64,000 bases of DNA from an uncultured virus (IMG/VR IMGVR_UViG_3300028646_000003). Lineage: Duplodnaviria; Heunggongvirae; Uroviricota; Caudoviricetes. The notes under the pieces are model-generated. The model was not told the DNA's origin, made no database searches, and saw only the letters and a list, made by a program, of their open reading frames with translations. Where the stretch lies: positions 62,001-126,000 of the IMG/VR virus record IMGVR_UViG_3300028646_000003; one strand, 5' to 3'. The stretch's first letter is position 1; each line of letters begins with the position of its first letter. Both the position numbers and the translations under genes were made by a program. This document shows, piece after piece, positions 4,969 through 43,268 of the stretch.

Positions 4969-5114
4969 TCATCTCCTATAATAATTTAATTTGTTATCCT
5001 AGCATTATATATGTAAAAAGGGAAGAGTATCTAGGATAATACTCTTATTGACATGGTTAATTACTCCTTGCTATCCCCTACTATAAATATACTCCTTTTG
5101 AGAGATATTGTCAA
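4969..5114 (-). promoter_or_regulatory. SigA promoter plus structured 5' leader (copy A)
   Basis: TTGACA-17-TATATT (5114-5086); three-stem junction 5019-5079; loop TATCCTAG complementary to CTAGGATA (4995-5002) and partly to the RBS. Confidence 0.7.
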
Positions 5115-5137
5115 ATAATTTTATATTAATTTATTAT

Positions 5138-5554
5138 TTAAATCACTTCTATTTCAATTTCTAAATTTAATCCTTTCAAGTCACTAGCACCAATTAAATT
5201 AACTCTAAAATAATCACCAATACTAACAATATCAGAACCGACTAAATAACTTCCATCATCAACTACTTGTTCAGTTCTAATAAATAAGTTACTACTTAAC
5301 ACACTAGACCATGTATCTAGTTGATTTTTAAAATCACCCTTACTTATCTTTTCTACTATTAATTGTGTATCTACAGTCCCTATATTATTTGTACTTGCAC
5401 TTATTTTAACTATCTTACCATTATAAGGACATCTAATTATTAGATCTTTTATCTTATCGGATACTTCAAAGAATTGAAATACAATTGTTTTTGTTGGTAT
5501 TGATTTTAAAACTTTATTTCCATTACTATTTAAAGTTATAAATTTCACATTCAT
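5138..5554 (-). CDS. Hypothetical structural protein
   Basis: 138 aa; N-terminus KFITLNSNGNKVLK resembles KFITIDSTGKKILR of the neighbouring gene. Confidence 0.6.
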   Translation of the reverse strand: MNVKFITLNSNGNKVLKSIPTKTIVFQFFEVSDKIKDLIIRCPYNGKIVKISASTNNIGTVDTQLIVEKISKGDFKNQLDTWSSVLSSNLFIRTEQVVDDGSYLVGSDIVSIGDYFRVNLIGASDLKGLNLEIEIEVI

Positions 5555-5558
5555 TCAC

Positions 5559-6092
5559 CTACTCTAAATAAATAACTTCATCTTGTTCATACCTTATTGC
5601 TAATGTACTATCACTTGTATTAACACAATATCCCAATGGTTGTACGAATTTAGAAGCAGTTGTCATATCTGGTGTTGCAACTGCTTTACCAAGAGTTCCT
5701 AAGAAATAACTAGCACCATTTACTAGTCCTACTGTTGGCAAATAATCGTTCAATCCTTCAAACATGATTAGTACACTATCTCCAGCAATACCATTAGCAG
5801 TAGTAAAACCATGACATACTTTAGCTGAATCAGTTACATCAGCTAATCTTGCTTTGTAATCTGTTCCGTCTGTAAAAACATTTACCCAATCACCTGCTGA
5901 TAATGGTTCTGATAAAGCAAAAATACATCCTACTTTTCCCACGGAAGTCGGAATCATAGAAATATCCACTTTTCCGTCTACGTTTAATCCTACAATTTTT
6001 CCACTGTCTGCTGAACCTAAACTTGTATCAACAGCACCTCTTAATATCTTTTTACCTGTGCTATCAATAGTTATAAATTTTTGTGTTGACAT
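5559..6092 (-). CDS. Putative head-fibre/capsid-cement-like protein
   Basis: ALSEPLSAGDWVNV...HGF...GASYFLG...FVQPLG pattern; paralogous to the C-terminus of 6124-6828. Confidence 0.5.
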   Translation of the reverse strand: MSTQKFITIDSTGKKILRGAVDTSLGSADSGKIVGLNVDGKVDISMIPTSVGKVGCIFALSEPLSAGDWVNVFTDGTDYKARLADVTDSAKVCHGFTTANGIAGDSVLIMFEGLNDYLPTVGLVNGASYFLGTLGKAVATPDMTTASKFVQPLGYCVNTSDSTLAIRYEQDEVIYLE

Positions 6093-6123
6093 TATATCAT
6101 CTCTCTTTCATCATTTAATTTGT

Positions 6124-6828
6124 TTATTCTAGTTCTACGCTTTCAGCAATATCAATTAATAGTTCACCATCATCATTAGTAAATACACCTATTTTTTGAA
6201 TAAATTTTGATAAAAGCATATTTGGTGTCTTTGTTATTTCTCCTGTATTTCCACAATAAGCTATATCACCTGTTACAAAATTAGTTTTCCATAATGGATT
6301 TACTATTTTGCCTTTATTTCTAACATAAGATTTTTCACCTTCTGAAGATGTATTTATTGCTAGTCCTACAACTTTATTTGAACATACTACATTATTACAA
6401 TCTGCAACAGCAACGGTATTGGCATTGGTTATAAAAACAACTTGTCCAATTAATACGCCACCTAAACCTGTTATATGCGTATCTATAGTTGAATCATTAC
6501 TTCTTTTAGCTAACTCAACTATTGCTTCTAAAACAGTACTAAACCCTAATAATGTTTGCATTTCTTGAACTTTTGCTTGTCCAACAGATGAATCAGTATC
6601 TAACAATACTCCATTAAATTTTCTACCAAAGTTAGTAAAGTTATCAAATAGTCCATTTACTAAAGTTTGTAAATCATTAACAGAACCTACTATATTAGTT
6701 TGATCTGTTTTTAATGCTTTATTTAAAAAATCAAGAGAGTCATAAGGCATTAAGGTATTACTACTAGTATCTTCTGTTAAGATATCGGATTGTATCTGTT
6801 GTAAATCCGTACTTGAATCATAACTCAT
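6124..6828 (-). CDS. Putative head-fibre/cement-like protein
   Basis: LKTDQTNIVGSVNDL fibre-like repeat; C-terminal GQVVFI...VVGLA...FIQKIG domain. Confidence 0.5.
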   Translation of the reverse strand: MSYDSSTDLQQIQSDILTEDTSSNTLMPYDSLDFLNKALKTDQTNIVGSVNDLQTLVNGLFDNFTNFGRKFNGVLLDTDSSVGQAKVQEMQTLLGFSTVLEAIVELAKRSNDSTIDTHITGLGGVLIGQVVFITNANTVAVADCNNVVCSNKVVGLAINTSSEGEKSYVRNKGKIVNPLWKTNFVTGDIAYCGNTGEITKTPNMLLSKFIQKIGVFTNDDGELLIDIAESVELE

Positions 6829-6839
6829 CTTATTCCTCC

Positions 6840-9800
6840 CTAAATTAATTTTATTATTTTAATCTTTATATCAGTTAAAGGTGCTGACAAAAATTTTATA
6901 ACATTAAGTGATGACATATACCACTTGCCTACGTAGGTATTATTAGTTGCACTACTTTCATAATCTCTCATGGGTATTCTTTCATTTTTTTCTGGGATGC
7001 CACTATCTAAATCAGCTTTTACTCCAACAAAGTAAACTTGTATTTTTTGCGTAGTATAATTTGTTGCATTTAATACGTTTGAAGGACTATAACCTGTTAC
7101 AGAAATCAAATTCAGACTCATTATTCCAACAGACCATGGAATTGTTAATTCAAAGTCATGTGCAGGTAATGCAATGGAGGCATCGGTTATGCTAAATGTA
7201 TAATCACTCAATGCACCATTACTTACTCCATCACTATTAGCAATTGCACCACTACTAATATTCACTGTAACAGTATTTCCACTAACCATTCCACCAATAG
7301 GAATTATTAATTGATTTCCACTAATACTTACTGTTCCTTTATTTGCACCTGTTACAACTATTTTACTAGTATCTAATAAAGTACAACTACTTTGATTAAT
7401 TGTATAAATTATTTGTGTAGTATTCTCAGGATAACTAGTAGATGTTGAAGCTGTTAAACTAGGTGCAGATAATATTGCTCTTGTTGTAAAACTAGCAGTT
7501 ACAGTATTTGTATTATCTGCTGTACCACTACTGTTAATTCCATCACCATTGTTAGTAACAATTCCATCTAACACACTTACAGAGTAGGTAGTGGAGTATG
7601 TTATATTACTCAAAGGTATATGTAATGTATTTGATGATAAAGTAGCTATTCCAACAGTTCCACTAGGACTAATACTTACTCTACTACCATCTTTTAAAGT
7701 TGTACCTATTGCATTTGAAACTCCGAAAGTAATTTCACTCAATGTAATTTGTTGATTGGTTAAACCATTGCTACTACTCTGTTGTACAATAGGCTGACTT
7801 ACATTTCCTGCTTTTGTTTTAAAAGTTGCTGTTATTGTATTACTATTTAACGTACTTCCACTAGTTGTAATATTATCACCATTATTTTGAACAATTCCAG
7901 CCAATATACTTACTGTATAGGTTGTACCTGTATTCAATCCACTCAAAGGCACATGAATTGCATTACCTATTAAAGTAGCTGTTCCTATAATTCCGCTTGG
8001 ATTACTTGTTACTTTTAATCCATTCACAAGTGTCAAACCAATAGCATTAGAAACATCAAACGTAATTTCACTCAATGTTGTTAATTGATTTGTTGCGTTA
8101 TTAAGATTACTTTGTAATATTGTAGGTGCAGACACAACAGGTCTATCTATAGTTGTAAATGTACAAGTCACACTATTTGTATTAGGATTATTACTTAAAG
8201 CAGAAATTCCATCTCCATTATTTTGAATTGCACTAGCATTTATTGATATACTATAGGTTGTTAAAAAATCTAAAGTAGTTACAATAGGAATATGTATAGC
8301 ACTTCCACTTATAGTTGGTGTACCTATTACAGCATGATCACAAGTTATTTTTGTACTATCTTTAATTGTTGTACCAATAAAATTACTAATAGGAAATACA
8401 ACTTCTGTCAAAGTTCTTGATTGATTACTTAAACCATTAATACTAGAATTTTGTACTATTGGTGGAGTAACTAATGTAGGCTCAGTTATAAAACTTGCAC
8501 TTATACTTGCATTAGGACTTGTACCGAAAGTATCAACATTGTCACCATTATTAACTATTAACCCACTTTGAAGTGTTATGGTATAAGATGTATAATAAGC
8601 CAAAGTCGATATTATTGGAATATGAATTGTTTTAGTGGCTAAATTTAAAGTTGGTGTCCCTATTACTCCTGTTTTATTACATGTAATTTTAGTAGCATCA
8701 GCTAAAGATAAATTAAAATCGTTAGAAATTTGGAAAGTTATCTCACTTAAATTTACTGAAACTACATTTGTATTGTTGATTGCAGATTGATTTATAATTG
8801 GATTTTGGGGCTTCGGCTTTGTAGTGGTCGAAAAACTAGTTGTCACACTATTTGTATTTGTAGCACTATTTAAATTATTAATTCCATCGCCATGATTTTC
8901 AACTATATTCGCTAATATTGAAATTGTATAAGTAGTTGAATACTCTAGTTTACTAGTCAAAATTGGAATATGTAATACATTTAAACCATCTAAAGTAGCA
9001 GTACCAATAGTTGCACTTACTCCACTACTTGATATAGTTGCTTGTGTTCCATCTTTTAATGTCATTGCAATAGCATTTGAAACAGGGAACGTAATTTCCG
9101 TAGTATATATATTTTGTTCTGTTAAACCATTCATTGATGATTGCAATATTACTGGTTTACTAATATCAGGTGCTATTGTTTTAAATGTACATGATACTGT
9201 ATTTGTATTTGGAGATGTTCTAGCTGTTGTAATATTATCTCCGTTATTTTCTACAGTATTTGGATTTACTGTTACTGTATAATTTGTTAAATTAGCTAGG
9301 TTATGTAATCCTACATGAATTGTGTTGCCAACTAATGTCACAGTATTAATTATATTTGTTGGACTTGATATTACGGAACTTACACTATCTAAAGTTAAAT
9401 TAAAGGTATCATTAACATCAAAAGTTATCTCACTTAAAGATAAAGGTTGGTCAATTACACCATCCATTGATGAAGGTAAAACTGTTGGTGAAATTGGATA
9501 ACTAAGCCAAGCAGTTTCAAATGAGCAAATTAATGCTAAATCATTCTGTGCTTCTCCAAACGACGTTTCATCATCGCCTTCATTCAAAATCACTCCCAAA
9601 TCTAGTTTCACATCATAAATTGTACCTGTGTTAAGAGGATTTAAATAAACATATAATTTCGTTCCCACCAATGTAACATCTTTTATTGCACCACTTGGAT
9701 TAGAAGTAACTTTTGTTATATCTTTTAATACTGTATTTATATCATTAGTTATATCAAACGCTATATATTCTAAATCTACTGGTATATTAGATTGTCCATC

Positions 9801-10193
9801 ATAAGTTGATTGTACTAAAACTGGTGATTTAACTATGTCTGTACTACCTGCATGAAGCATAAGATAAGCTAACTTTTCCAAAGGAATTCCTGTTGGTTTC
9901 GGCTTGAATCCGATATTTACTCCACCTACAGCAATTGTTGAAGGTTCTTGATTTGTGTACAAAATACTTCCACCACTGCCTCCTGAACCACCATTAAATA
10001 TTTCCCATATATTTAAATCATCTTTTATATAATAATATTGTTTATCATTAGTTACATATACTAATAAACCAAGATGTCTTTGAATTATTGGCATAGCTTG
10101 TAAATCAGCATATGTATCAACCACTGTACGTAAATCGACTGGTTGTTGTGAACCTAATAAAAACCCACTCGCTATTGGAATTCCACTTGCCAT
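6840..10193 (-). CDS. Large virion protein with tandem Ig-like repeats
   Basis: About 7 repeats of roughly 115 aa (P-x-I/V-x-Q-S...EITF...IHIP...T-x-Y-x-V/I...N-x-GD...S/T-F-x-T) plus a divergent eighth; N-terminal PVDLRTVV...GLLVYV module. Confidence 0.75.
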   Translation of the reverse strand: MASGIPIASGFLLGSQQPVDLRTVVDTYADLQAMPIIQRHLGLLVYVTNDKQYYYIKDDLNIWEIFNGGSGGSGGSILYTNQEPSTIAVGGVNIGFKPKPTGIPLEKLAYLMLHAGSTDIVKSPVLVQSTYDGQSNIPVDLEYIAFDITNDINTVLKDITKVTSNPSGAIKDVTLVGTKLYVYLNPLNTGTIYDVKLDLGVILNEGDDETSFGEAQNDLALICSFETAWLSYPISPTVLPSSMDGVIDQPLSLSEITFDVNDTFNLTLDSVSSVISSPTNIINTVTLVGNTIHVGLHNLANLTNYTVTVNPNTVENNGDNITTARTSPNTNTVSCTFKTIAPDISKPVILQSSMNGLTEQNIYTTEITFPVSNAIAMTLKDGTQATISSSGVSATIGTATLDGLNVLHIPILTSKLEYSTTYTISILANIVENHGDGINNLNSATNTNSVTTSFSTTTKPKPQNPIINQSAINNTNVVSVNLSEITFQISNDFNLSLADATKITCNKTGVIGTPTLNLATKTIHIPIISTLAYYTSYTITLQSGLIVNNGDNVDTFGTSPNASISASFITEPTLVTPPIVQNSSINGLSNQSRTLTEVVFPISNFIGTTIKDSTKITCDHAVIGTPTISGSAIHIPIVTTLDFLTTYSISINASAIQNNGDGISALSNNPNTNSVTCTFTTIDRPVVSAPTILQSNLNNATNQLTTLSEITFDVSNAIGLTLVNGLKVTSNPSGIIGTATLIGNAIHVPLSGLNTGTTYTVSILAGIVQNNGDNITTSGSTLNSNTITATFKTKAGNVSQPIVQQSSSNGLTNQQITLSEITFGVSNAIGTTLKDGSRVSISPSGTVGIATLSSNTLHIPLSNITYSTTYSVSVLDGIVTNNGDGINSSGTADNTNTVTASFTTRAILSAPSLTASTSTSYPENTTQIIYTINQSSCTLLDTSKIVVTGANKGTVSISGNQLIIPIGGMVSGNTVTVNISSGAIANSDGVSNGALSDYTFSITDASIALPAHDFELTIPWSVGIMSLNLISVTGYSPSNVLNATNYTTQKIQVYFVGVKADLDSGIPEKNERIPMRDYESSATNNTYVGKWYMSSLNVIKFLSAPLTDIKIKIIKLI

Positions 10194-10213
10194 ATATTTT
10201 CACATCCTTTCTA

Positions 10214-11107: not shown

Positions 11108-11115
11108 AATATCAC

Positions 11116-12899: not shown

Positions 12900-12941
12900 T
12901 TAAATGCCCCTTATTTAATTTATTTTGTCTCTAACCTTCAA

Positions 12942-25490: not shown

Positions 25491-27071
25491 TTAATATATT
25501 TCCGAATCAATATATTTAAATGTAAATCCATGATGATGTCCACTTATCCCTTGACAAACTTTCCCTATATTAGCATTAAATAATTTAACTCCAAATATTT
25601 CTAAACTTCGTCTTTCTAATTCAATTATAGACTTAAAAACACCTAAACTTATTCCATCTTTAAATATTTCTACTTTTTTACCCAATGCTTTTTCCATTTC
25701 TTCTTTTGCATCATAATTAATCCAATCCCATATTTCAGAACCTTGCTTTAAATATTTTCTCGCAGTTTGACCTTTTATGTTAAGAATATTTCCTATATCT
25801 GTAGTTGTCATTTCACAGTTGTCATGTTTAATTTCACAAACTTTTTTAACTAAATTAATACATGCAAATTCTGAACATTGAATCCAATCAATATTACTCA
25901 AATCAAATTTAGTTATCATCTTTTCATTGTTTAATATACTATTATTAATCCATTCTAATGTACTTTTCCTACAATCTATCACTATATAATTTTCTTCTTT
26001 AATACCATTTGCTAAAGCTAATTCTTTCTTTAATCTATCATTTTCTTGTTCTTCTTTAAGCATTCTAGAATCTTTTAAATGCGTAAATCCTTCTTCATAA
26101 TGTTGCATACCATGAGTTTCTACAATATACTGTTCATTGTTATATTCAAAATAAAAATCATATTTGTATTTTTTACACCAATTAAACGAAGATTTATTCA
26201 ATTGTGTTTCAAAATCTAGCCCCAATTGTATCAAAATACTAAAAACAAATTTTTCGGGATAGGGAAATTTATCACTACAAATACAAGCTATTGAATGATG
26301 TTCATAAATTGTATTTATCCTCATTTTCTTTGATTTTACTTTTCCACAGTCAGGACATAACGGTATTATGTTTTCATTGCTTCTAGCAGTATATTTCTTA
26401 GCTTCCTCATATCCTCCTTGAAAATAAGGTATCATCCAAGGATCAGTAATAACAATCGAATTAATATTTTTGACTACAATATGTGATGAACTACAACAAC
26501 AAGAACAACCTTTTCCATCTTTTAAATTTCCTTCTGTTATCCAATACTCTTCTTTATATATTTTATCTCTAGTAGAATAATGTTCGCCACATTCAAACCC
26601 ACACTCGTTACATTTATATTTATAATATTTTAGCCCTTTTTCATCTTTCTTTGCATCAGTAATGGTGATATTTCTTTTATTATCTTTAAATATCATTCCT
26701 ATTTCTATTTTAAAATCTCCAGTTGCTTTACCTAATATTTTTCCTATTTTACATCTTTGAAAATCACAAGTAAAAACCTCATCTTCCTTATCATTGAATT
26801 CTATTAATATATAATTCTTTTTATCTCTTTCATAATCAATAATTTTAATATATCCTTCTCTGTCCTTGTATATGAAATATATTTTGAAGTTTTTTGAGTA
26901 ATCCCAATTAATACATTTATTAGATATATTTCCTCCCTTTTTACCTTTTCCTCCATGTGGTAAAATATCTAAAAATACTTTTCTAATTTTACTATTCTCA
27001 TAATCTTCTTTATTTTCTTCTTTAAATTTATTTATAATTTCTAAATACTTTTCTTGGCTAATTCTCTCCAT
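25491..27071 (-). CDS. Zn-ribbon PD-(D/E)xK (Vsr/DUF559-like) putative homing endonuclease with NUMOD1-like tail, paralog 1
   Basis: CxxC pairs, YKYDFYF...IVETHGMQHY, C-terminal IGKVCQG...HGFTFKY. Confidence 0.7.
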   Translation of the reverse strand: MERISQEKYLEIINKFKEENKEDYENSKIRKVFLDILPHGGKGKKGGNISNKCINWDYSKNFKIYFIYKDREGYIKIIDYERDKKNYILIEFNDKEDEVFTCDFQRCKIGKILGKATGDFKIEIGMIFKDNKRNITITDAKKDEKGLKYYKYKCNECGFECGEHYSTRDKIYKEEYWITEGNLKDGKGCSCCCSSSHIVVKNINSIVITDPWMIPYFQGGYEEAKKYTARSNENIIPLCPDCGKVKSKKMRINTIYEHHSIACICSDKFPYPEKFVFSILIQLGLDFETQLNKSSFNWCKKYKYDFYFEYNNEQYIVETHGMQHYEEGFTHLKDSRMLKEEQENDRLKKELALANGIKEENYIVIDCRKSTLEWINNSILNNEKMITKFDLSNIDWIQCSEFACINLVKKVCEIKHDNCEMTTTDIGNILNIKGQTARKYLKQGSEIWDWINYDAKEEMEKALGKKVEIFKDGISLGVFKSIIELERRSLEIFGVKLFNANIGKVCQGISGHHHGFTFKYIDSEIY

Positions 27072-27225
27072 TAATAAATTCCTCCAATATAATTTAATTT
27101 ATTGCTCCAATATGTATAAAAGGAAAGGAAACTCATTGGAGAGAGCTTATCAATTGAACTCGCGACTTTTCAATCTATCCTTCCATATCTATATATTATA
27201 ACATACTTTAAGAGTAATTATAACT
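27072..27225 (-). promoter_or_regulatory. Promoter plus structured 5' leader (copy B)
   Basis: TGnTATAAT -10; three-stem junction 27122-27184; loop CTCCAAT pairs with ATTGGAG at 27105-27111 and 27082-27088 (RBS). Confidence 0.7.
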
Positions 27226-34340: not shown

Positions 34341-35960
34341 TTATATTGCTTGATTTAATTTTGCATTTTCTTGAATTTCTTTTATTTGTTCTTCGGTAAG
34401 GTCTTTTAAGTATCTAAATTGATATCCTTGATGATGTTGCTGTTTCCCTTGACATACTTTAGTTATAGCACTATTAAACATTTTTATTCCAAATATTTTA
34501 AAACTATTTAATTCACATTCAGAAATGGAATTAAATATAATACCATTTTCTATACAAATTATTTTAGTACTTAACTTTTGTTTATTTCTTTCTATAGTAT
34601 TATTATTATTAATATTTTTTGAAATTTCCACAGTATAATCTGTTATTTTCAGTTCAAATCCTATTTTTAAATACGTGCAAATTGTTGTTCTGCTCATCTT
34701 CATAATTTTGGAAATTTCAGTTGTACTATGAATACCGATATTCCATAAATCACAAGCTTCTTTGATTCTACTTGACGAAACAAATTTCAAAACCTTACTC
34801 CAATCAATATTGGCTAATAAAAACAAATTATTTATATTAACATTAGATAATATATTATTTTTTATATAATCAAATCCATAGTACATACGATGGTCACAGT
34901 CAACTCTAATTACTTCAATTCCATGTTCAATAGCTAATCTATCTTTTTCATCATCAATAAATTGTGATTCTTTAGCAGTCATATTATTCTTAAAATTCCC
35001 CTTACCATGACCTAGACCCCCATCCATTTCTATAATGTATTTTTTGCCATCTTGCTCAAAATAGAAATCATAATAACCTTGTCTTCGTTTATTTTTATAT
35101 AAAAATTTACACCATTCTACTTTCTTTTCTGCTTCAAATTGAACATTTAGTTGTTCTAACACATTAAACATTATTTTATTTGGCACTGAAATACCATCCC
35201 CACATTTATTACATGAAAATCCGTTCCTTACAAAATTATCAATAGTCATTTCTTTTCTATAATAACAGTCCAAACACTTAAACCACACTTTTTTATGGCT
35301 ACCAATTGTGTATTTCCAAGTATCTTCTTCGTTTACAAAGTATTTAACTAGTTCTAGGTTCGTTTTCCATATAGAATTTATCTCTTTTACGACTTTTTGA
35401 GAATTTGGACAACAAATTTCACAACCTACTCCACGTAGAATATCTCTTTGAGAAATTTCATCTATATCTCCACATGACAAACATTTATATTTATATCCTT
35501 TAACTTTATAACTATAGTTTGATTTAATAATTAATTGTTCTAATATCAATAAATTTGAATGCTTTCCTTTGACAATATCACCTCTATTATATAAATATTC
35601 TTTATTCCTTATATTGAATAGTTTGCCTATTTGACAATTATTAATGCTCCCTGCATTTAAACTTAAGTTTTCACCATAATATTCAATTGTTATTTTTAAT
35701 TGTTTATCATATGAATAATCTATTAATCTTATATAATCCTCATGAACACCATATATAAAAAATATATAATAATTTTTATTCACTGATTCAATCCAATTTA
35801 TACTACCTTCTTTTGCTTTTCCACCTTTTCCCCATCTAGGCAAACATTCCAAAAATATCTTTTTACATTTACCACTCTCATAATCTTCTCTATTATTTTC
35901 CTTAAATTTTTCAATAATCTCCATATATTCTTCTTGATTTAATTGTCTATTTCCTTCCAT
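34341..35960 (-). CDS. Zn-ribbon PD-(D/E)xK putative homing endonuclease, paralog 2
   Basis: KVWFKCLDC, YYDFYF...IIEMDGGLGH, ITKVCQGK..HH.GYQFRY. Confidence 0.7.
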   Translation of the reverse strand: MEGNRQLNQEEYMEIIEKFKENNREDYESGKCKKIFLECLPRWGKGGKAKEGSINWIESVNKNYYIFFIYGVHEDYIRLIDYSYDKQLKITIEYYGENLSLNAGSINNCQIGKLFNIRNKEYLYNRGDIVKGKHSNLLILEQLIIKSNYSYKVKGYKYKCLSCGDIDEISQRDILRGVGCEICCPNSQKVVKEINSIWKTNLELVKYFVNEEDTWKYTIGSHKKVWFKCLDCYYRKEMTIDNFVRNGFSCNKCGDGISVPNKIMFNVLEQLNVQFEAEKKVEWCKFLYKNKRRQGYYDFYFEQDGKKYIIEMDGGLGHGKGNFKNNMTAKESQFIDDEKDRLAIEHGIEVIRVDCDHRMYYGFDYIKNNILSNVNINNLFLLANIDWSKVLKFVSSSRIKEACDLWNIGIHSTTEISKIMKMSRTTICTYLKIGFELKITDYTVEISKNINNNNTIERNKQKLSTKIICIENGIIFNSISECELNSFKIFGIKMFNSAITKVCQGKQQHHQGYQFRYLKDLTEEQIKEIQENAKLNQAI

Positions 35961-36120
35961 TCTTAAATTCCTCCAATATAATTTATTTCTCCAATATTAA
36001 ATAAAAAAGGAAGAAAGGTTAATTGGAGCTAACCCATTCAATATAACAAATCGTCGACTACTTATTATATTTATTTCTTCCTACTATATATTATAACACT
36101 CTTACGAGCAAATTATAATC
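35961..36120 (-). promoter_or_regulatory. Promoter plus structured 5' leader (copy C)
   Basis: TGTTATAAT -10; junction 36008-36082; loop CTCCAAT pairs with ATTGGAG at 35989-35995 and 35971-35977 (RBS). Confidence 0.7.
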
Positions 36121-36366
36121 AATTTTATTTTCAATTTCATATCCATTTTTATACATTTATGGTATAATATAATCACTGTATTGTATAGAGAAAGTTAAAA
36201 TATAAATAAAGGGATTTACATTTTATTAAAACTATAAATTTTGAACTATATAATATTAGTCTTGTGTCCCCTAATAATGTTCTACCTAATTCTTTTAAGT
36301 ATTTTACCATATAAATTATTAATAAGTGTTTTTATGGCAAAATACTTAAAAGGAGGTGTTTTTTAA

Positions 36367-36504
36367 ATGAATATGGGGTACATAATTGAAAGTCTTATAA
36401 AGGTAATTTTATTCGCTATAACCATCAAACTAATTATTTATGCTAATGAGAACGGTATAAGTAAAGACATAATAATAGCTCTCATTTTAGGTTTTCTGAA
36501 GTAG
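36367..36504 (+). CDS. 45 aa hydrophobic peptide, probable type I toxin
   Basis: MNMGYIIESLIKVILFAITIKLIIYANENGISKDIIIALILGFLK; AGGAGG RBS at the 3' end of a long hairpin (36290-36354); terminator 36547-36571; convergent promoter downstream. Confidence 0.65.
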   Translation: MNMGYIIESLIKVILFAITIKLIIYANENGISKDIIIALILGFLK

Positions 36505-36634
36505 AACACGGAAACCTAACGCAAGAGCATAAGACTTAGAATCTATGGGCGAACTGCAATTCGTCCTTTTTCTATTATTATATCCAGTATACCATAGTTT
36601 ATACTTCTTGCAATATTTAATTTTAATTGTTTAT

Positions 36635-37324
36635 TTAGCATCTTTGCCAAATTTGTTCTATATAATTATTATCTTTTCTATATCCAACGATAATACAATC
36701 CCAATTCATGCTATAATGTTCATTATCTTCTGAAACTGTTCTTATATTAGTTATATCCTTGCATCTATTGTAAAGATCCTTTGTATGCCTAAAATTATCA
36801 TCTCTAAATTCAACTTGTTCTAATGAGTCCTTTACAATTAAATCCCCATACTGACAAGTATCAAGATATTGTCTAGCAAAAATTTCTACACCACTCATAT
36901 CTTTATAGCCTGTTAATTTTATTTTAGTTTTATCATTATGTATGACCTTCAATTCGTCACCTTGTCTTGTTATATACAATATATCATCTAATAACTCGTA
37001 TAAATAATATTCTAAATCATCATCTATTAGAATTGGACTTTTACCATCTATTAAAATCACCTTATATTCATTAGAAATTAGTTTTTCAATAAAATTAATT
37101 ATTTGTTGTTTGATAATAATTTTTATATAACACTTCTTACCTTGTTTATTTAGATCAATATATTTCTCCCAATTAGTTGCATTACAATTTAAATAATCTT
37201 CATAATTATTTATATCACTATAATTTTTAATCCCATGTCTTTCACAAAAACGACCATATTGAATAAATAACTCCTTTGTACAATTCATTTCCATTACATT
37301 TTCAGTTGTTAATACTTGTCCCAT
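36635..37324 (-). CDS. Hypothetical protein
   Basis: 229 aa, GGGAG RBS, promoter TTGCAA-17-TATAAT at 37483-37455. Confidence 0.7.
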   Translation of the reverse strand: MGQVLTTENVMEMNCTKELFIQYGRFCERHGIKNYSDINNYEDYLNCNATNWEKYIDLNKQGKKCYIKIIIKQQIINFIEKLISNEYKVILIDGKSPILIDDDLEYYLYELLDDILYITRQGDELKVIHNDKTKIKLTGYKDMSGVEIFARQYLDTCQYGDLIVKDSLEQVEFRDDNFRHTKDLYNRCKDITNIRTVSEDNEHYSMNWDCIIVGYRKDNNYIEQIWQRC

Positions 37325-37584
37325 TTAACACATCTCCCTTGATTTTTCAGGAATAACTATGCTACAATAATACTTGCGAGGTATTTTGGTGGTAGCTTAT
37401 TTAGTTATCGCCTTATTTTTATTTGGTAATGTTTGTTTTGTTTACCATATGTTCATTATAATACCACTTTAGAAACATTGCAATACCTTTTTAAAAACTT
37501 TTATGTTTTTTATTTAAACTTCTAAATATCATTATTGAAACATTTCTTGATATAGTATATAATTAATTAAGAGGTGAATGTAAT

Positions 37585-38346: not shown

Positions 38347-38450
38347 AAGTTAATTCTAGTCTTACATATTTTGTTGAAATTATTTATAATTTTCACCTTT
38401 ATATTTTAAAAAAGGTAAAGTTTACGGAGTTAGAAAATAAATTTATCTGA

Positions 38451-38666
38451 CACCGTTAGGTGGAAGAAAGCGTAGCGTTAGCTACAAGACTTATATATTC
38501 ACTAAATGATGTTTAATATCTATACGCCCTGCCTTAAGGCGTCCCTAAAGGGACTCAATTTTGTCTTGTTCGTACCTCACAATCCAAGTATGATTTTTCT
38601 TAATTTATTTTATATATGCACATTATAGACCTTACTAGTTATATTAATACGAGGCATAATGTGCAT
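38451..38666. other. Cluster of GC-rich mini-hairpins and an inverted repeat (origin/primase-site-like)
   Basis: CACC-GTTA-GGTG, GTAGC-GTTA-GCTAC, GCCTTAAGGC, GTCCC-TAAA-GGGAC, and 11-bp IR ATGCACATTAT (38616/38656). Confidence 0.5.
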
Positions 38667-38669
38667 GTA

Positions 38670-39410
38670 TTAATTTTCTTTAACACTTTCAAGCCAATCA
38701 ATATAATATTCATTAAACTTCTTAGATTCATATGTATCAGTAATTAATTTATAAATATCTTTAAATAGTTGATTTTCCTTTTGCAATTGAAACTTACTAA
38801 CTCTATATACGAATTTATCTTCAATAGTTTGAGCATATGCAGTAACACTATCCATTAGCATTTGCATAGTATCATAATCAATTTCATCTTTTTTATATTT
38901 TTGTGCTATTTCCTGTTTCTTATTTGCGAATCTACTACATTTAATATAAGAAGAATATTCTTCTTTGCATGTTATTCTGTATGTAGGTTTCTTATCATTA
39001 TCAAATTCCATAGCAATATAAAAATAACCATCTTTTGATAATATATTATTCATTAACATTTTTTCATCCCACCTAGTTATTGTTTTTCTATTAACTTTAC
39101 ACCATTTAGATAACATTTCTTTTGTAATTGGTTTATTAATATTAAATAATCTATACATAAAATAGTCACCAAAAGAGTAATCATTTTTAGTTCCAAACAT
39201 AATTTTTGAGATATCATTTAATAATTTCTTACTATCATTTATCTTCTCTATTTCATATGTATTACTTCTGCCTTCTTTTGTTTTATTAATCAATTTATAT
39301 CCTTTTTCATCTAGTCTTGATTCTAATGTATTTCTTTGTTCTATAACGGTTAATGCTCGATCTTTAACACCTAAAATGTCCATTAATTGCTTTTTATTTA
39401 TTTTCTCCAT
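38670..39410 (-). CDS. Rep-like/HTH DNA-binding protein
   Basis: ITKEMLSKWCKVNRKTITRW HTH; start moved to ATG 39410, which has an AGGAGA RBS. Confidence 0.55.
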   Translation of the reverse strand: MEKINKKQLMDILGVKDRALTVIEQRNTLESRLDEKGYKLINKTKEGRSNTYEIEKINDSKKLLNDISKIMFGTKNDYSFGDYFMYRLFNINKPITKEMLSKWCKVNRKTITRWDEKMLMNNILSKDGYFYIAMEFDNDKKPTYRITCKEEYSSYIKCSRFANKKQEIAQKYKKDEIDYDTMQMLMDSVTAYAQTIEDKFVYRVSKFQLQKENQLFKDIYKLITDTYESKKFNEYYIDWLESVKEN

Positions 39411-39500
39411 ATTTATCGCTTCTCCTATCAATCAATTATTTTTGCACAACAAAAAGAGATAGCTATAAAACTATCTCTAACTTGTCTTAATCATTTTAAT

Positions 39501-39677
39501 TTAGTTATAAAATTCACTTAATGCTTTAAACAATTCCTTTGACTTTGTATACTTATAAATTCTTACACCAAAATCATTAGTTTTAACAAAAGCCCATCTA
39601 AATCCCTTTTCAGTTAAAAAGTCAACTTCTTTTAAATATTGTGTTGGATATTCTTTATCCCATTTTTGATTATTCAT
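39501..39677 (-). CDS. Small phage protein (58 aa, DUF5659-like inferred; absent from the ORF track)
   Basis: MNNQKWDKEYPTQYLKEVDFLTEKGFRWAFVKTNDFGVRIYKYTKSKELFKALSEFYN with AGGAG RBS. Confidence 0.7.
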   Translation of the reverse strand: MNNQKWDKEYPTQYLKEVDFLTEKGFRWAFVKTNDFGVRIYKYTKSKELFKALSEFYN

Positions 39678-39714
39678 TATTTATCACTACTCCTATTTAT
39701 ATATTAATTTATTT

Positions 39715-40686
39715 TTAATTAGCAACTTTCAAGTTCTCATCTATATTCTTTATAATATCTTCATAAGATTTAGATTGTATTTTACCATCTTTAATCAACT
39801 TTTTAATTATGTAAGAAATGCCTTGTGATTTTATTAGTGTTTTTGAATCAGCAAATCTGTTTCCTTCTATTGGTATAACCTTAAAATGGTTCATGTCTAC
39901 TTGATTTTGATAAGGTTCATTATTTGCTCTTAATATTTTATTATCTCTCATCCATTCAAATAATTTATTACGTCCAAACTTTGGAATATTTAATATCTTA
40001 CTAAATTCACCTACGTCATATAACTTATTTGAGTTAGTAAATCTATCTGCGATAGCTAAACTATCTTGTACTTGTTCCATTAATTGTTCTTTTGCTAAAG
40101 TTATATCTATTTGTTTAATTTGTTCTTCTAATTTTTTATCTCTTTCTAATAATACTAATTTCTTAGAAGTATCAGATTCCATTATTACACTACCTAATAT
40201 ATATTTTCTTTCTTCTATAAAAGATTCTTTACTTTCTTGTAAAGTCTTTTCCATAACAATGTTCTCTGCCTTAATTTTAAAATAATCTTCAATGAAATCT
40301 TTATATAACTCTACTGCTTTATCTCCTTCTGCAAATTTTAAAAATAATAAAAATCCTGCTTCAGAAAATACATAAATATTTTTAGCTAAATTAATAGCTT
40401 GATCTGTATAACCTAGTGTTTTCAATGCTTCCTTTGTAGTGTCCTGCTGTGGGACACTAGATTTTAAATCTAAAATATCAACTCCAAATTCAAAATGTTG
40501 TAAATTATCGGACAATCTTTGCCTTACACTTCTAGCTCCTTTTGCATATTCTAATAATTCTGCAATTTGTCTATCAGTAATAATTGGACTCGACTCAGAA
40601 AATCCACCTAATACTTTTGTAAATTCTCGCTCCTTTACTTGTACTTTTCCTTCTGTAAATAATTTGATAATTTTGTTTTGTTCCAT
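39715..40686 (-). CDS. Phage antirepressor (ORF6N + ANT/KilAC), paralog of 14316-15146
   Basis: GGFSE, FEFGVDILDL, IYVFSEAGF and GRNKLFEWMRDNKIL...NEPYQ. Confidence 0.85.
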   Translation of the reverse strand: MEQNKIIKLFTEGKVQVKEREFTKVLGGFSESSPIITDRQIAELLEYAKGARSVRQRLSDNLQHFEFGVDILDLKSSVPQQDTTKEALKTLGYTDQAINLAKNIYVFSEAGFLLFLKFAEGDKAVELYKDFIEDYFKIKAENIVMEKTLQESKESFIEERKYILGSVIMESDTSKKLVLLERDKKLEEQIKQIDITLAKEQLMEQVQDSLAIADRFTNSNKLYDVGEFSKILNIPKFGRNKLFEWMRDNKILRANNEPYQNQVDMNHFKVIPIEGNRFADSKTLIKSQGISYIIKKLIKDGKIQSKSYEDIIKNIDENLKVAN

Positions 40687-41023
40687 TCAAAACAACTCCT
40701 TTTTATTTTAATTTATTCTTAATACATGCGTTTCTGCATATACTTTAATCGTATTTCTACTGTTTATTTAGTTAGAATAATCCGACTAAGGGAGCTACCC
40801 TTAGTCATAAATTACTCATTGCATGTATTCTAAATAAATTTTGGTGTTGGAATCACCATTAAAATATACGTCTTTGAAAATTATGTATTGACTTTATATA
40901 TTAATTTGTTAATTGGTATATTTATACTATAATACCATCGCTTTATAAAGTCAATACATATTTATATTAATTTGTTTTAATAATTATATTCCTTTAAAAT
41001 GAACAATTTATGTTGTTATCGTT

Positions 41024-41470
41024 TTATGAAAAATCATATCCTTTTGATTTTAGCATACTAATAATATCTTTAATTGCATCTCCAGTTACCACATAATTTT
41101 CATAAGTATCTCCAATCATATCCATTTCTTTTCCACCTCTTTTATACCCTAGACCTTCTGCAAACATCTCTGCAATATCTGTAATTGGTAAAGGATTTTT
41201 ATTTTCTGAGTTTGAAGGAGATTGCATAGCACTTGGATCAAGTTTTATTTCTGCTATATATTCATTTCCTACTATTTTATAATCAATTATAATCGAATTT
41301 AACAATTCTGACGTTCTAGAGTAGACTTGAGGAGAATATGAACTATAGATAACAGTTATAACATAGTCTTGTATAATTCCTTTTATTTTTTCTGCTTCAT
41401 CTCTTAATATTTCTCCTACATTCGTTTGTAATTGAGAATAGAATGCTTCTAGACTATTAAAATCTGCCAT
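41024..41470 (-). CDS. Putative tail completion/neck protein
   Basis: IYSSYSPQVYSRTSELLNSI motif; position in the tail operon. Confidence 0.55.
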   Translation of the reverse strand: MADFNSLEAFYSQLQTNVGEILRDEAEKIKGIIQDYVITVIYSSYSPQVYSRTSELLNSIIIDYKIVGNEYIAEIKLDPSAMQSPSNSENKNPLPITDIAEMFAEGLGYKRGGKEMDMIGDTYENYVVTGDAIKDIISMLKSKGYDFS

Positions 41471-41598
41471 GTATTGTCACTTCCTTTATATTATTAATGT
41501 ATTTCATTTTAGGTATAATAAAAGACACCTTAATTAATAAGATGCCTTAGGTTGTTTTGTGTTTAGTTATTTAATTTTCTATTGCTTGGTTTAAGTTA

Positions 41599-43128
41599 TT
41601 AGGCTACAAATTTAAAAGTATATCCTTTATATTGTGGCTTTTTACCTCGGCATACTGCTGATATTTTACAAAAGTTTAGCTTTGCTCCAAATAATTCTTC
41701 ACTTTTTTCATCTAATTCTTGTGCTGATGGAAATATTCCTTGACTTATATTATCTTTAAATATTTCAACTGGTTTACAATTGTTTTTTGTGACTTTTCTA
41801 ATATGTTCTATTTTGAATTTTTCACTATCTTCTACAGTATAATCGCACCAATCGAGATTTTTACCTTTCTTCAAATAACTAAGTGCACATGAACTTGATA
41901 TTTTTAAAATCTTACCTATTTCCCCTGTACTTCTAATCCCACTATTCCATAATTCACAAGCTTCTTTTACTATTGGCTTATGAGATTGTTCATCAGCTTT
42001 CTTAAAATCAACTTTATTTAAATCAAAATAATAATTTAAATCGCTATTTAGTATATTATTCTTTATATTTTCATATTTTCTAATTCTAAAATAACAATTA
42101 ATCCTAATTGGTTTCTTTATTCCATGTAACATAGCCATTTCTTCTTTATAATCATCAATTGCTTTTGACTCCTTAGAACTTTGTCCACTCATTTTGTTGT
42201 CATTTTCATGCCAACCACCATCCATCTCTATAATTAAATTCATTGATGGAATGTAAAAATCATATCTTCTTTTGCCTATCCAATCCGGAGAATACTCTGG
42301 AATAAATTCTATATTTAATTGAGTTAAAATATTAAACATGAATTTTTCAGCGTAACTTTTCCCATCGCCACAATATTCACAACCAATACTTTCATTTGAA
42401 ACAAAAGAATTTACAGAAACTTTTTTCTTCTTTATTTTCCCACATTCTTTACATTTTACATATACTTTTCTATTGCTACATTCACTATGAATATAAGTAT
42501 CTTCAATATTTAAAAAGAACTTCGCCATTTCTGGATTTGTTTTAGATATGCTATTTATATCTTTTACTATAATTGTACTATTACAACAAGCACAACCTGT
42601 ATCTCGACTAAGTAGATTATGTTCTGGTATCCAAAATTCATCTTTATATTCCTTATCTCTTATTGAATAATGTTCTCCACAATCAAATCCACACGTATTG
42701 CATTTGTATTTATAAAGTTTACTTTTTCCTTTTTCATTTTTATAATCGGTTATTGTTATATCTCTTTTATTATCTTTTATTATTTGCCCAATTTTATATT
42801 TAAAATTACTTGTTTTTGTACCAACTATATTCCCTAATTTACATTGTGTAAAATCTCCTGTATTTATTTTATATATATCTTGTAGATAAGATATTTGTAG
42901 TTCTTGTCCAATACTTCTATAATTTATTATCATTACATAACCTGCAACATTTTTATCTATAAAATATACTTTATAGTCGTTGCTATTTTTCCAATCTATA
43001 CTTCCACCATTGTGATTTGATTTAGGTAATACATCTAAAAATATCTTTCTACACGTTCCACTTTCAATTAATTCATTATGTTCTAGTTCCCATTGTTCAA
43101 TAATTTGTTGATATTCCCTTTCTTCCAT
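41599..43128 (-). CDS. Zn-ribbon PD-(D/E)xK putative homing endonuclease, paralog 3 (509 aa)
   Basis: RYDFYIP...IIEMDGGWH, ISAVCRGK..Y.GYTFKF; true start ATG 43128 has a GGAGG RBS and aligns with the paralog N-termini. Confidence 0.7.
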   Translation of the reverse strand: MEEREYQQIIEQWELEHNELIESGTCRKIFLDVLPKSNHNGGSIDWKNSNDYKVYFIDKNVAGYVMIINYRSIGQELQISYLQDIYKINTGDFTQCKLGNIVGTKTSNFKYKIGQIIKDNKRDITITDYKNEKGKSKLYKYKCNTCGFDCGEHYSIRDKEYKDEFWIPEHNLLSRDTGCACCNSTIIVKDINSISKTNPEMAKFFLNIEDTYIHSECSNRKVYVKCKECGKIKKKKVSVNSFVSNESIGCEYCGDGKSYAEKFMFNILTQLNIEFIPEYSPDWIGKRRYDFYIPSMNLIIEMDGGWHENDNKMSGQSSKESKAIDDYKEEMAMLHGIKKPIRINCYFRIRKYENIKNNILNSDLNYYFDLNKVDFKKADEQSHKPIVKEACELWNSGIRSTGEIGKILKISSSCALSYLKKGKNLDWCDYTVEDSEKFKIEHIRKVTKNNCKPVEIFKDNISQGIFPSAQELDEKSEELFGAKLNFCKISAVCRGKKPQYKGYTFKFVA

Positions 43129-43268
43129 CACTAATTCCTCCGTTGAATTTATTTTCCGATTTATATGTAATATAGGAAGGGAGTTCGGAATACTCCTTTT
43201 CAATAAGGCTCATGACTTCCTTATTTATCCTACATTACAATAATACCATATTTAGGTATTATTGTAAA
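43129..43268 (-). promoter_or_regulatory. Promoter plus structured 5' leader (copy D)
   Basis: TTTACA-17-TATTAT within a perfect 13-bp IR (43235-43267); junction 43173-43232; loop TTCCGA pairs with TCGGAA (43154-43159) and the CGGAGG RBS. Confidence 0.7.

What the first reader, a model, noticed from the sequence alone, without database searches (positions are those of the whole stretch)
4969..43268. Conserved three-way-junction leader with a covarying anti-RBS pseudoknot upstream of four endonuclease genes
Cores lie at 5019-5079, 27122-27184, 36008-36082 and 43173-43232 (minus strand). Each follows a sigA-like promoter and has the layout P1 (AGG/GGA...CC) - ATAR - P2 with an AGT-containing loop - TGA(A/T) (TCAAT in copy A) - P3 - P1'. 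Stem sequences differ but pairing is kept. The P3 loop is complementary to two downstream sites, an upstream decoy and the RBS, and it covaries with them: CTCCAAT/ATTGGAG (B, C), TTCCGA/TCGGAA and CGGAG (D), TATCCTAG/CTAGGATA and TAGGAG (A). Copy A precedes a dissimilar endonuclease, so the RNA appears to travel with gene function. I do not recognise it as a named family. Inference: a translational switch that restrains toxic nucleases, or an RNA partner of the nuclease.
Basis: partly seen in the sequence, partly recalled or inferred. Interest (0 to 1): 0.85.

Follow-up and report, generated by a model that had tools for sequence, protein, structure and literature searches.

The report
Folded leader RNA gating phage nucleases
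Four selfish DNA-cutting-enzyme genes of this peat-soil phage each begin with the same small three-armed RNA, in which one loop matches the gene's own ribosome landing site and another loop can pair with a twin molecule, so it most likely keeps the nuclease scarce; the RNA family is widespread in phages but is not catalogued.

Summary
All four cores fold into the same three-way junction, and a covariance model finds exactly these four in the 130-kb phage record. In 29 distinct copies from many phages, 93.5% of cells pair and 17 of 19 pairs show changes on both sides. The P3 loop matches its own downstream sites far better than the sites of other copies (0 of 20000 permutations).

The P2 loop carries a 6-base palindrome in 13 of 14 copies, with six different palindromes in all. 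Four different ones occur in this window, which points to loop-loop pairing of two RNAs.

The leader precedes at least five unrelated nuclease families. Downstream genes are nuclease-like in 15 of 16 copies and in 19 of 24 further copies. It is found in phages whose genes have a Shine-Dalgarno site and in phages whose genes lack one.

No Rfam family matches, int-alpA included.

The most likely function is a portable leader that blocks the ribosome-binding region. The trigger, and whether the upstream site is a decoy or a second clamp, remain open.

This scan has already noted the family in at least 8 other genomes.

The parts
5086..5114 (-). Copy A: sigma-70-type promoter-like site, 11 of 12 matches, spacer 17
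5018..5079 (-). Copy A: three-way junction. P1 5075-5079 with 5018-5022; P2 5066-5071 with 5051-5056; P3 5038-5046 with 5023-5031
5058..5063 (-). Copy A: 6-base palindrome inside the 9-base P2 loop (5057-5065)
   Evidence: coordinates by arithmetic
5031..5038 (-). Copy A: P3 loop word (8 bases) complementary to both sites
4995..5002 (-). Copy A: upstream site (site 1), 8 bases complementary to the P3 loop
4973..4978 (-). Copy A: site 2 over the Shine-Dalgarno region, 5 contiguous pairs with the loop
3481..4962 (-). Gene A, 493 aa. Residues 1-110 match phrog_5104 (E 3.2e-12) and residues 1-98 match phrog_12131 'homing endonuclease' (E 1.3e-6). No catalytic domain identified
27195..27203 (-). 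Copy B: extended -10 element seen by eye; the two-hexamer scan found no promoter here
27122..27184 (-). Copy B: three-way junction. P1 27179-27184 with 27122-27128; P2 27169-27175 with 27152-27158; P3 27143-27148 with 27129-27134
27160..27165 (-). Copy B: 6-base palindrome in the P2 loop (27159-27168)
27135..27142 (-). Copy B: P3 loop
27105..27111 (-). Copy B: site 1, 7 bases complementary to the P3 loop
27089..27102 (-). Copy B: A/T-rich box between the two sites. It is the same box that precedes many ordinary genes of this phage
27081..27088 (-). Copy B: site 2 over the Shine-Dalgarno site, 8 pairs including one G-U
25491..27071 (-). Gene B, 526 aa, phrog_4538-type nuclease (E 5e-47); also matches phrog_9084 'homing endonuclease'
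36090..36098 (-). Copy C: extended -10 element seen by eye; the scan found only a more distal site at 36112-36140
36008..36082 (-). Copy C: three-way junction with a long P2. P1 36074-36082 with 36008-36016; P2 36058-36071 with 36040-36053; P3 36029-36034 with 36017-36022
36053..36058 (-). Copy C: 6-base palindrome at the tip of P2
36022..36028 (-). Copy C: P3 loop word (7 bases)
35989..35995 (-). Copy C: site 1, 7 bases
35970..35977 (-). Copy C: site 2 over the Shine-Dalgarno site
34341..35960 (-). Gene C, 539 aa, phrog_4538-type nuclease (E 2e-54), with a treble-clef zinc finger (PF14311)
43240..43268 (-). Copy D: promoter-like site, 10 of 12 matches, with TG before the -10 hexamer
43166..43239 (-). 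Copy D: three-way junction with a 12-pair P1. P1 43228-43239 with 43166-43177; P2 43219-43225 with 43202-43208; P3 43192-43196 with 43180-43184
43210..43215 (-). Copy D: 6-base palindrome in the P2 loop (43209-43218)
43185..43191 (-). Copy D: P3 loop
43154..43159 (-). Copy D: site 1, 6 bases
43138..43142 (-). Copy D: site 2 in the Shine-Dalgarno site, 5 pairs including one G-U
41599..43128 (-). Gene D, 509 aa, phrog_4538-type nuclease (E 6e-50)

Best explanation
Each of the four genes is a free-standing homing-endonuclease cassette made of promoter, leader and reading frame. The leader is a 60-75-base three-way-junction RNA at or near the 5' end of the transcript.

Shown by comparison:
- Three stems are kept by compensatory changes.
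- The P3 loop is complementary to one or two short sites in the ribosome-binding region of its own mRNA, and loop and sites change together.
- The P2 loop presents a 6-base palindrome flanked by purines.

Inferred:
- The junction is a scaffold that holds the P3 loop ready to pair with the ribosome-binding region, which lowers initiation and keeps a potentially harmful nuclease scarce.
- The palindromic P2 loop lets two leaders kiss. A pair then offers two P3 loops for the two sites, which would make the block depend on how much leader RNA has accumulated.
- The cassette is portable and has been recombined in front of many unrelated nucleases.

Not known:
- whether the upstream site competes with the ribosome-site copy (a switch) or adds to the block;
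- whether some leaders end at the U-rich tract after P1' and act in trans;
- what, if anything, sets the state.
For: Structure. See (stems; loop and sites) as given in the observation check.

The pairing is RNA-like. Where the two sites of one leader differ, the change is A to G opposite a loop U. This occurs in 5 leaders: D, G1_22406, G2_10474 and G2_30819 and L197.

The pairing is aimed at the ribosome-binding region as such. In relatives whose genes show no Shine-Dalgarno site (L190, L195, L204, L234), the sites are arbitrary words 4-7 bases and 17-30 bases before the start.

P2 loop. 13 of 14 copies not selected by that loop hold a 6-base Watson-Crick palindrome. There are six different palindromes; the shuffle mean is 1.8 and 0 of 5000 shuffles reach 13. 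The four copies of this window carry four different palindromes.

Gene association.
- First set, 15 of 16 nuclease-like: 12 phrog_4538-type, 1 GIY-YIG, 1 phrog_559 and gene A.
- Second set, 19 of 24 nuclease-like: HNH, GIY-YIG and others.

Cassette. A related phage has the same junction between the long upstream gene and the next gene, but with about 135 bases and no nuclease.

Precedent. Ribosome-site-sequestering structures are described for I-TevI, I-TevII, I-TevIII, mobE and segB of T4-type phages (PMC3014915, passages of section 29).
Against: - There is no expression or probing data.
- Folding energies of single copies are ordinary, and for B the junction is not the minimum-energy fold.
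- The stem alignments were fitted to the model.
- The sites were found by best-match search. Only the permutation tests control for this.
- The upstream site pairs as well as or better than the ribosome-site copy in 8 of 12 leaders by length. It is also nearer, so the default fold could leave the ribosome site free.
- 1 of 16 and 5 of 24 downstream genes are not nuclease-like: a 132-aa protein, an integrase, a DnaD-like protein and three unknowns.
- About half of the relatives of these nucleases have no such leader.
- A is detected only marginally by a model built without it.
- Promoters at B and C failed the scan.
- Dimer formation is inferred from sequence symmetry alone.
Confidence: 0.6

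Rival explanations
1. The leader is mainly a trans-acting small RNA. Transcription from the cassette's own promoter often stops at the U-rich tract after P1'. This would release a 70-80-base junction RNA whose free P3 loop binds the sites on full-length or internally started mRNAs. The logic would resemble that of the c4 antisense RNA of phages P1 and P7 (as I recall it).
For: U is enriched just after P1': 63% in the first 5 bases against 33% over the leaders, and 18 of 30 copies have at least 5 U in 9. A dedicated promoter sits directly in front of a non-coding structure. Two identical target sites and a dimerising loop suit binding by more than one RNA. Loop words and palindromes differ between copies of one genome, as expected if cross-talk in trans must be avoided.
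Against: The terminator scan reports nothing at the four leaders. A branched structure is an atypical terminator. U-richness may simply be a flexible linker in AT-rich DNA. B and C share one loop word. No small RNA has been observed.
Confidence: 0.15
2. The leader is a 5' stability or processing module, not a translational brake. A closed P1 at the 5' end, locked by the loop-site pseudoknot, would protect the mRNA from 5' exonucleases. It would also define a clean 5' end when the cassette sits in an operon or a tRNA array.
For: P1 begins within a few bases of the inferred start site. In a second subfamily it begins within about 10 bases of the 3' end of a tRNA, tmRNA or ROOL RNA.
Against: This does not explain why the loop's partner always lies in the ribosome-binding region, including in genes without a Shine-Dalgarno site. 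It also does not explain the association with nuclease genes.
Confidence: 0.1
3. The features act at the DNA level. Loop word and sites would be binding sites (an operator) for the cognate nuclease or a phage repressor. Alternatively, the conserved leader would be a recombination linker like the promoter-stem-loop (PeSL) cassettes of T4-type phages.
For: I-TevI represses its own promoter by binding an operator; this is cited as reference 101 in PMC3014915 (seen in the reference list only). PeSL cassettes, made of a strong promoter and a stem-loop, flank shuffled genes (PMC2839356, abstract and passages). Here the leader is part of an insertion/deletion between related phages.
Against: Near-orthologous proteins (C and G2_30819) carry different words, while one word precedes a phrog_4538 nuclease, a GIY-YIG nuclease and a 132-aa protein. 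The inverted copy always lies in a hairpin loop whose stem covaries. Differences between the sites are G-U compatible. A linker role for recombination is not excluded and could coexist with the RNA function.
Confidence: 0.05
4. The junction is a sensor (riboswitch-like, or bound by a phage or host protein). Its conserved junction bases and P2 loop would bind a factor that decides whether the P3 loop takes the upstream site (on) or the ribosome site (off).
For: Junction bases are strongly conserved over phages with 27-53% G+C. Two alternative partners for one loop is the classic layout of a switch.
Against: The P2 loop keeps its symmetry, not its sequence. No ligand pocket is evident. A second subfamily has different junction sequences and only one site.
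Confidence: 0.1

Closest known systems
Ribosome-site-sequestering RNA structures of T4-type homing endonuclease genes (I-TevI, I-TevII, I-TevIII, mobE, segB)
   Same: The target is the same (translation initiation of a mobile nuclease gene in a phage), and so is the principle (the ribosome-binding site is paired). Source: PMC3014915, passages of section 29.
   Different: Those are simple local hairpins, specific to each gene. They are relieved when a late promoter inside the hairpin gives a shorter transcript. Here a conserved, portable three-way-junction scaffold pairs through a hairpin loop (a pseudoknot). It usually has two identical sites and carries a palindromic second loop. It occurs before at least five nuclease families in phages of very different composition. 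Whether the A/T-rich box between the sites in this phage is an internal promoter is open.
c4 antisense RNA of phages P1 and P7 (from my own knowledge; no paper was read here)
   Same: It is a structured RNA encoded in the leader of the operon it controls. Its loops pair with sites that include a ribosome-binding site, and loop and target change together between relatives.
   Different: No Rfam hit of any kind falls on the leaders at E<=1 or E<=10. c4 uses two different loops for two different sites and is released by processing. Here one loop serves two identical sites, and release is not shown.
Dimerisation initiation site (kissing loop) of HIV-1 genomic RNA (from my own knowledge)
   Same: It is a hairpin loop of about 9 bases made of a 6-base palindrome flanked by purines, and the palindrome varies between strains while its symmetry is kept. 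This is the layout of the P2 loop here.
   Different: The biology is unrelated. Dimer formation here is inferred only.
int-alpA RNA motif, Rfam RF02996
   Same: It is a small phage- or island-associated RNA of unknown function.
   Different: The Rfam model gives no match at E<=10 in this phage, in two relatives or in two further records that carry the leader. It gives none on the 14 short leader loci, and none in 20 further loci at E<=1.
Unnamed candidate structured RNAs of the IMG/VR catalogue (PMC10690425)
   Same: Supplementary file 5 lists candidates that lie within 25 bases upstream of genes with mixed HNH, NUMOD4, GIY-YIG and AP2 domains, for example DNAVirus_8080 and DNAVirus_8377. Some may be this family.
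   Different: The main text does not mention HNH or GIY-YIG and gives no pseudoknot, palindrome or mechanism.
PeSL promoter-stem-loop cassettes of T4-type phages (PMC2839356)
   Same: They are short conserved regulatory cassettes, made of a strong promoter and a structure, that travel with accessory genes and mark insertions and deletions between close phages.
   Different: The PeSL stem-loop is a terminator placed around the promoter and acts as a DNA recombination linker. Here the structure is a transcribed three-way junction with covariation and pairing to the ribosome site.

Membership tests
Any Rfam 15 family | Match to a curated covariance model at its gathering score | tested here: not met
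   Window: 0 matches at gathering score and 2 unrelated matches at E<=1, neither on a leader. 14 short leader loci at E<=10: 8 chance-level matches, none reaching half of its gathering score. 12 and 20 relatives' loci: only tRNA, tmRNA, ROOL, abiF and chance hits, none on the element.
int-alpA (RF02996) | Score of at least 35.8 bits with the Rfam model | tested here: not met
   0 of 5 records (G000, G001, G002, G006, G007) match at E<=10. 0 of 5 further genomes or records match at E<=1.
Group I intron carrying a homing endonuclease gene | Intron ribozyme core on both sides of the reading frame, inside a split host gene | tested here: not met
   No intron model matches. Only 57-170 bases lie between each nuclease stop and the next gene, and the flanking reading frames are intact. 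A promoter-like site sits directly upstream. A related phage joins the same two flanking genes through an ordinary intergenic spacer.
T4-type ribosome-site-sequestering hairpins | The ribosome-binding site is paired within the mRNA | tested here: met
   Complementarity of the loop to the site over or next to the Shine-Dalgarno site holds in all 13 canonical copies and covaries. This is an in silico result only.
T4-type ribosome-site-sequestering hairpins | A later promoter inside the structure gives a shorter, translatable transcript | tested here: inconclusive
   An A/T-rich box lies between the two sites in G000-G002 leaders. It also precedes the Shine-Dalgarno site of many ordinary genes, with about 75 occurrences of which 70 are in gene orientation. 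It may be a phage promoter or only a common upstream element. It is absent from most other lineages.
c4-type leader-encoded antisense RNA | Loop or loops complementary to a target that overlaps the ribosome site of the same operon, covarying between relatives | tested here: met
c4-type leader-encoded antisense RNA | Released as a free small RNA that acts in trans | not testable with these tools
   The only hint is the U-rich tract after P1'. No reads show RNA ends.
Kissing-loop dimerisation hairpin | Self-complementary hexamer in an apical loop, with symmetry kept while the sequence varies | tested here: met
   13 of 14 copies and 9 of 10 distinct loops carry one. There are six palindromes, and 0 of 5000 shuffles reach the observed count. 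Physical dimer formation was not tested.
Intrinsic terminator | G+C-rich hairpin followed directly by a run of U | tested here: inconclusive
   The scan reports none at the leaders, but U is enriched after P1'.

The most novel reading that the evidence does not exclude
The leader is an RNA-only dosage controller that is also an address label. Two identical leaders kiss through their private palindrome, and the pair clamps both sites of the ribosome-binding region. Nuclease synthesis would then shut off once the cassette's own RNA reaches a set concentration. Each cassette in a genome carries its own palindrome and its own loop word, so several cassettes can be controlled independently. The whole module moves between at least five unrelated nuclease families and between phages of hosts with and without Shine-Dalgarno-led initiation.
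Probability: 0.25. Interest if true: 0.85.

Novelty: new variant of a known kind. Interest (0 to 1): 0.72.

Why it matters
Homing endonucleases are among the most common selfish genes in phages. How their expression is kept tolerable has been worked out only for a few T4-type genes, each with its own hairpin.

Here a single conserved RNA architecture, absent from Rfam, appears to do this job for many unrelated nucleases. It works across phages of very different hosts and carries a programmable loop-to-site address and a programmable dimerisation loop.

If confirmed, it would be a new widespread class of cis-regulatory RNA. It would give a natural example of an orthogonal, portable translational brake, and it would help mark free-standing nuclease cassettes in phage annotation. 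The predictions can be tested directly with reporters and compensatory mutations.

Tried and rejected
- Group I intron: rejected (see membership test).
- Hammerhead-like core: the junction after P2, the first P3 pair and the single base before P1' recall part of the hammerhead core by eye. The strand between P1 and P2 lacks the catalytic bases, and no ribozyme model matches.
- tRNA-like fold: ARAGORN finds nothing in the window, and the order of the arms is wrong.
- Named phages: megablast of the B region found nothing. blastn of a relative's leader gave only a chance match in a Clostridium phage gene.
- First pattern scan of viral contigs: 117 stretches, nearly all chance. The true ones were L034 and re-finds of known copies.
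- My loose descriptor alone does not separate true copies from background three-way-junction-like stretches.
- Cellular genomes: the P2-loop pattern gave 31 stretches, with model hits at only 3 at E<=0.01. In 150 further genomes of the class of one carrier, none was found at E<=0.001; only 35 candidates per genome were scored.
- Sequencing runs: 23 peat DNA runs hold the stretch. The one RNA-library run held contigs that are 90-95% or less like the gene's first part and that run on, unlike this window, upstream. Contigs cannot show transcript ends, so nothing can be concluded about transcription.
- PDB sequence search and NCBIfam gave no usable name for the proteins.
- Literature: a search for the P2-loop letters returned 10 unrelated papers. 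Three word searches found no description of this RNA.
Coordinates were worked out by arithmetic.

Full report
**Setting**

The window is bases 62001-126000 of a 130,085-base virus record, estimated 74% complete. Its G+C content is about 27%. Near-identical DNA occurs in 23 peat metagenome runs. All long reading frames near the finding lie on the minus strand. There are no tRNA genes in the window and no Rfam matches at gathering score.

**The four genes**

- B, C and D are paralogues, 37-42% identical to each other. They belong to phrog_4538 (E 5e-47 to 2e-54) and also match families named homing endonuclease, HNH endonuclease and intron-encoded nuclease.
- Gene A is unrelated to them (18% identity). 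Only its first ~100 residues match anything: phrog_5104 and phrog_12131 'homing endonuclease'. Atlas neighbours are viral proteins. A minority carry HNH_repeat, and others carry DUF7487 with DUF559; these are leads only.
- The genes are free-standing. The gaps to the next gene are 57-170 bases.
- For B, a related phage (G001) joins the same long upstream gene to the same downstream gene through about 135 bases with no nuclease. Promoter, leader and reading frame therefore form one insertion/deletion unit.

**The leaders in the window**

Reading the four regions and parsing them with my own descriptor gives the same plan in each:

1. a purine-rich P1 strand;
2. two or three junction bases;
3. 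hairpin P2;
4. three to five junction bases;
5. hairpin P3;
6. none to two bases;
7. the pyrimidine-rich P1 partner;
8. a U-rich spacer;
9. a first site complementary to the P3 loop;
10. an A/T-rich box;
11. a second site over the Shine-Dalgarno site;
12. the start codon.

Single-sequence folding is unremarkable, with z-scores of 0.77 to -1.98. The junction is the minimum-energy fold for A, C and D but not for B. The case therefore rests on comparison between copies.

**Relatives**

- A protein-guided scan of viral contigs gave 27 loci. Their upstream regions showed the same leader before some relatives (L005, L007, L008, L020), a variant before others (L010, L027), degenerate forms (L011, L016), and nothing before L006, L013, L014, L017, L018, L023 and L025.
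- Models R1 and R2 then found further copies in two large related phage records.
- My descriptor counts four copies in each of G000, G001 and G002.
- With filters off, R2 ranks the 13 expected copies above everything else. A comes last, at 10.9 bits.
- Model R3, built from those 13, finds exactly four matches in the whole record of this window.

**Stems**

| Alignment | Distinct copies | Cells paired | Pairs changed on both sides | Shuffles reaching the observed value | Slid controls |
|---|---|---|---|---|---|
| 13-copy | 12 | 94.6% | 16 of 19 | 0 of 500 | 44-54% |
| 30-copy | 29 | 93.5% | 17 of 19 | 0 of 500 on four measures, 14 of 500 on the fifth | 40-50% |

Both alignments were fitted to the model, so the counts lean towards the structure. 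The 17 added copies were picked by a pattern in the P2 loop only, which left P1, P3 and the lower part of P2 free to vary.

**Loop and sites**

- In all 13 canonical copies the P3 loop has two non-overlapping complementary sites of 5-11 bases. One lies 23-41 bases and one 4-13 bases before the start.
- Cognate loops pair with their own downstream region better than with those of other copies: 13.1 against 8.0 bases, and -8.7 against -4.6 kcal/mol. No permutation of 20000 reaches the observed value. With one representative for each of seven loop classes, only the identity among 5040 permutations does. Shuffled loops do so 0 of 2000 times.
- On all 30 copies, with loops taken automatically from the model alignment, the result is the same (0 of 20000). 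It holds for the 17 new loci alone: 12.5 against 6.9, 0 of 20000.
- Where the two sites of one leader differ, the change is A to G opposite a loop U in five leaders. This fits RNA pairing and not a repeated DNA word.
- The words do not follow the proteins. C and its close counterpart in G002 carry different words, and one word precedes a phrog_4538 nuclease, a GIY-YIG nuclease and a 132-aa protein.

**The second loop**

Among 14 copies not selected through P2, 13 hold a 6-base Watson-Crick palindrome in the P2 loop; the exception has a 4-base one. There are six different palindromes. The shuffle mean is 1.8, and 0 of 5000 shuffles reach 13.

In the 9- and 10-base P2 loops of A, B and D the palindrome lies off the centre of the loop, so there it is not an extension of the stem. 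The four copies of this window carry four different palindromes, and so do the four copies of G002.

**A wider family**

- A scan of viral contigs for the commonest P2-loop form gave 47 stretches. R3 matches at the pattern's place in 28 of them at E<=1, and in 26 at E<=0.022. These include phages with 43-53% G+C.
- Several of these have promoters and gene starts of the kind I know from Bacteroidota. They have no Shine-Dalgarno site, yet they keep two identical arbitrary words just before the start.
- Thirteen further stretches form a second subfamily. It has the same P2, the same three-stem topology and other junction bases, but a single site over the Shine-Dalgarno site. That site lies at about the distance from P1' that site 1 has here. 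The loop and site covary in five pairs read by eye.
- This subfamily sits directly after tRNA, tmRNA or ROOL genes in phage tRNA arrays.
- Downstream genes of 24 new loci: 19 are HNH, GIY-YIG or other nuclease families, including the family of gene A (L224). The other five are an integrase, a DnaD-like protein and three unknowns.
- In cellular genomes the element is rare. Of 31 pattern matches, 3 have model hits at E<=0.01: a Clostridium MAG, a Roseburia MAG and Actinobacillus indolicus. In 150 further genomes of one carrier's class, none was found.

**What it is not**

- No Rfam family matches the leaders under any threshold tried.
- It is not an intron; see the membership test.

**How it probably works**

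Shown: the fold, the loop-site complementarity placed on the ribosome-binding region, the palindrome, and the link to nuclease cassettes.

Inferred: the loop-site pairing hinders initiation, as the simple hairpins of T4-type nuclease genes do (PMC3014915, passages of section 29).

Two observations caution against calling the upstream site a decoy:

- In relatives with short spacing, both sites lie inside the stretch a ribosome would cover.
- The single site of the second subfamily occupies the position of site 1.

A pair of leaders joined through the palindromes would present two loops for two sites. This is my preferred reading of why the sites are duplicated, but nothing here tests it.

The U-rich tract after P1' leaves room for a released small RNA that acts in trans.

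In this phage and its two relatives the box between the sites is the same box that precedes many ordinary genes. If it is a phage promoter, short transcripts would escape the block, as with I-TevI. The box is missing in most other lineages, so it is not part of the family's core.

**Literature**

I found no description of this RNA.

A catalogue of candidate viral RNAs lists unnamed candidates directly upstream of mixed HNH and GIY-YIG genes (PMC10690425, supplementary file 5). Its sequence files were not readable here, so overlap cannot be excluded.

The PeSL cassettes of T4-type phages share the idea of a portable regulatory cassette but differ in kind (PMC2839356, abstract and passages).

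This scan has noted the same family in at least eight other genomes.

**Verdict**

The finding is a real, covarying and apparently uncatalogued leader RNA family. The mechanism class (pairing of the ribosome site) is known. The architecture, its portability and the dimerisation loop are new. Function is inferred, not shown.

Noticed in passing
whole G000 record; in the window e.g. 27089-27102 and 35978-35988 (minus strand): An 11-base A/T-rich box occurs about 75 times in the record, 70 times in gene orientation. It very often lies 10-20 bases before the Shine-Dalgarno site and start of ordinary genes. It is a candidate phage-specific promoter or a common upstream element.
   Followed up: partly
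window 43305-43328 (minus strand): A terminator-like hairpin (10 pairs) lies just after the gene upstream of cassette D. Cassette D therefore appears transcriptionally insulated from that gene.
   Followed up: no
window 36140-36635: About 500 bases upstream of cassette C have no long reading frame. Model R2 gives a weak plus-strand hit at 36497-36573 (17.1 bits, E 0.4-0.6).
   Followed up: no
L212, L226, L193, L215 (tRNA-array phages): The nuclease reading frames behind the leader are cut by an early in-frame stop: TAG in L212 and L226, not checked in L193 and L215. In L212 and L226 the translation shown goes on in the same frame with protein-like sequence. This suggests stop-codon recoding or decayed genes in these 100-220-kb phages with large tRNA arrays.
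   Followed up: no
L202 1195-1785 (-), L208 1183-1777 (+), L226 1197-1549 (+): ROOL RNA (333 and 331 bits) and a tmRNA gene lie in phage tRNA arrays. A leader-plus-nuclease cassette starts about 25 bases after the 3' end of each ROOL RNA, and in L226 a few bases after a tRNA gene that lies downstream of the tmRNA.
   Followed up: partly
L233 3170-3206 (-), L229 1059-1095 (+): The abiF RNA motif (46.1 and 39.4 bits, above its gathering score of 37) lies beside a tRNA gene. These are the two loci whose leaders precede an integrase and a DnaD-like gene.
   Followed up: no
L010 2872-2989, L027 2870-2986: A variant leader has a T-loop-like palindromic P2 loop, a long G+C-rich P3 and a single site just 5' of the Shine-Dalgarno site. 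Between the two loci, one loop base and its partner in the site change together, and P2 is almost wholly replaced while staying paired.
   Followed up: partly
G001 about 186,640-190,850 (L118, L227, L228): Two identical leaders lie in opposite orientation about 4 kb apart, each before a different paralogous nuclease.
   Followed up: no
window 27069-27151 (copy B): In the minimum-energy fold of B, the P3 5' strand and loop pair with the second site and the spacer up to the start codon as one long interrupted helix instead of forming P3. The block on the ribosome site may therefore extend beyond the loop in this copy.
   Followed up: no
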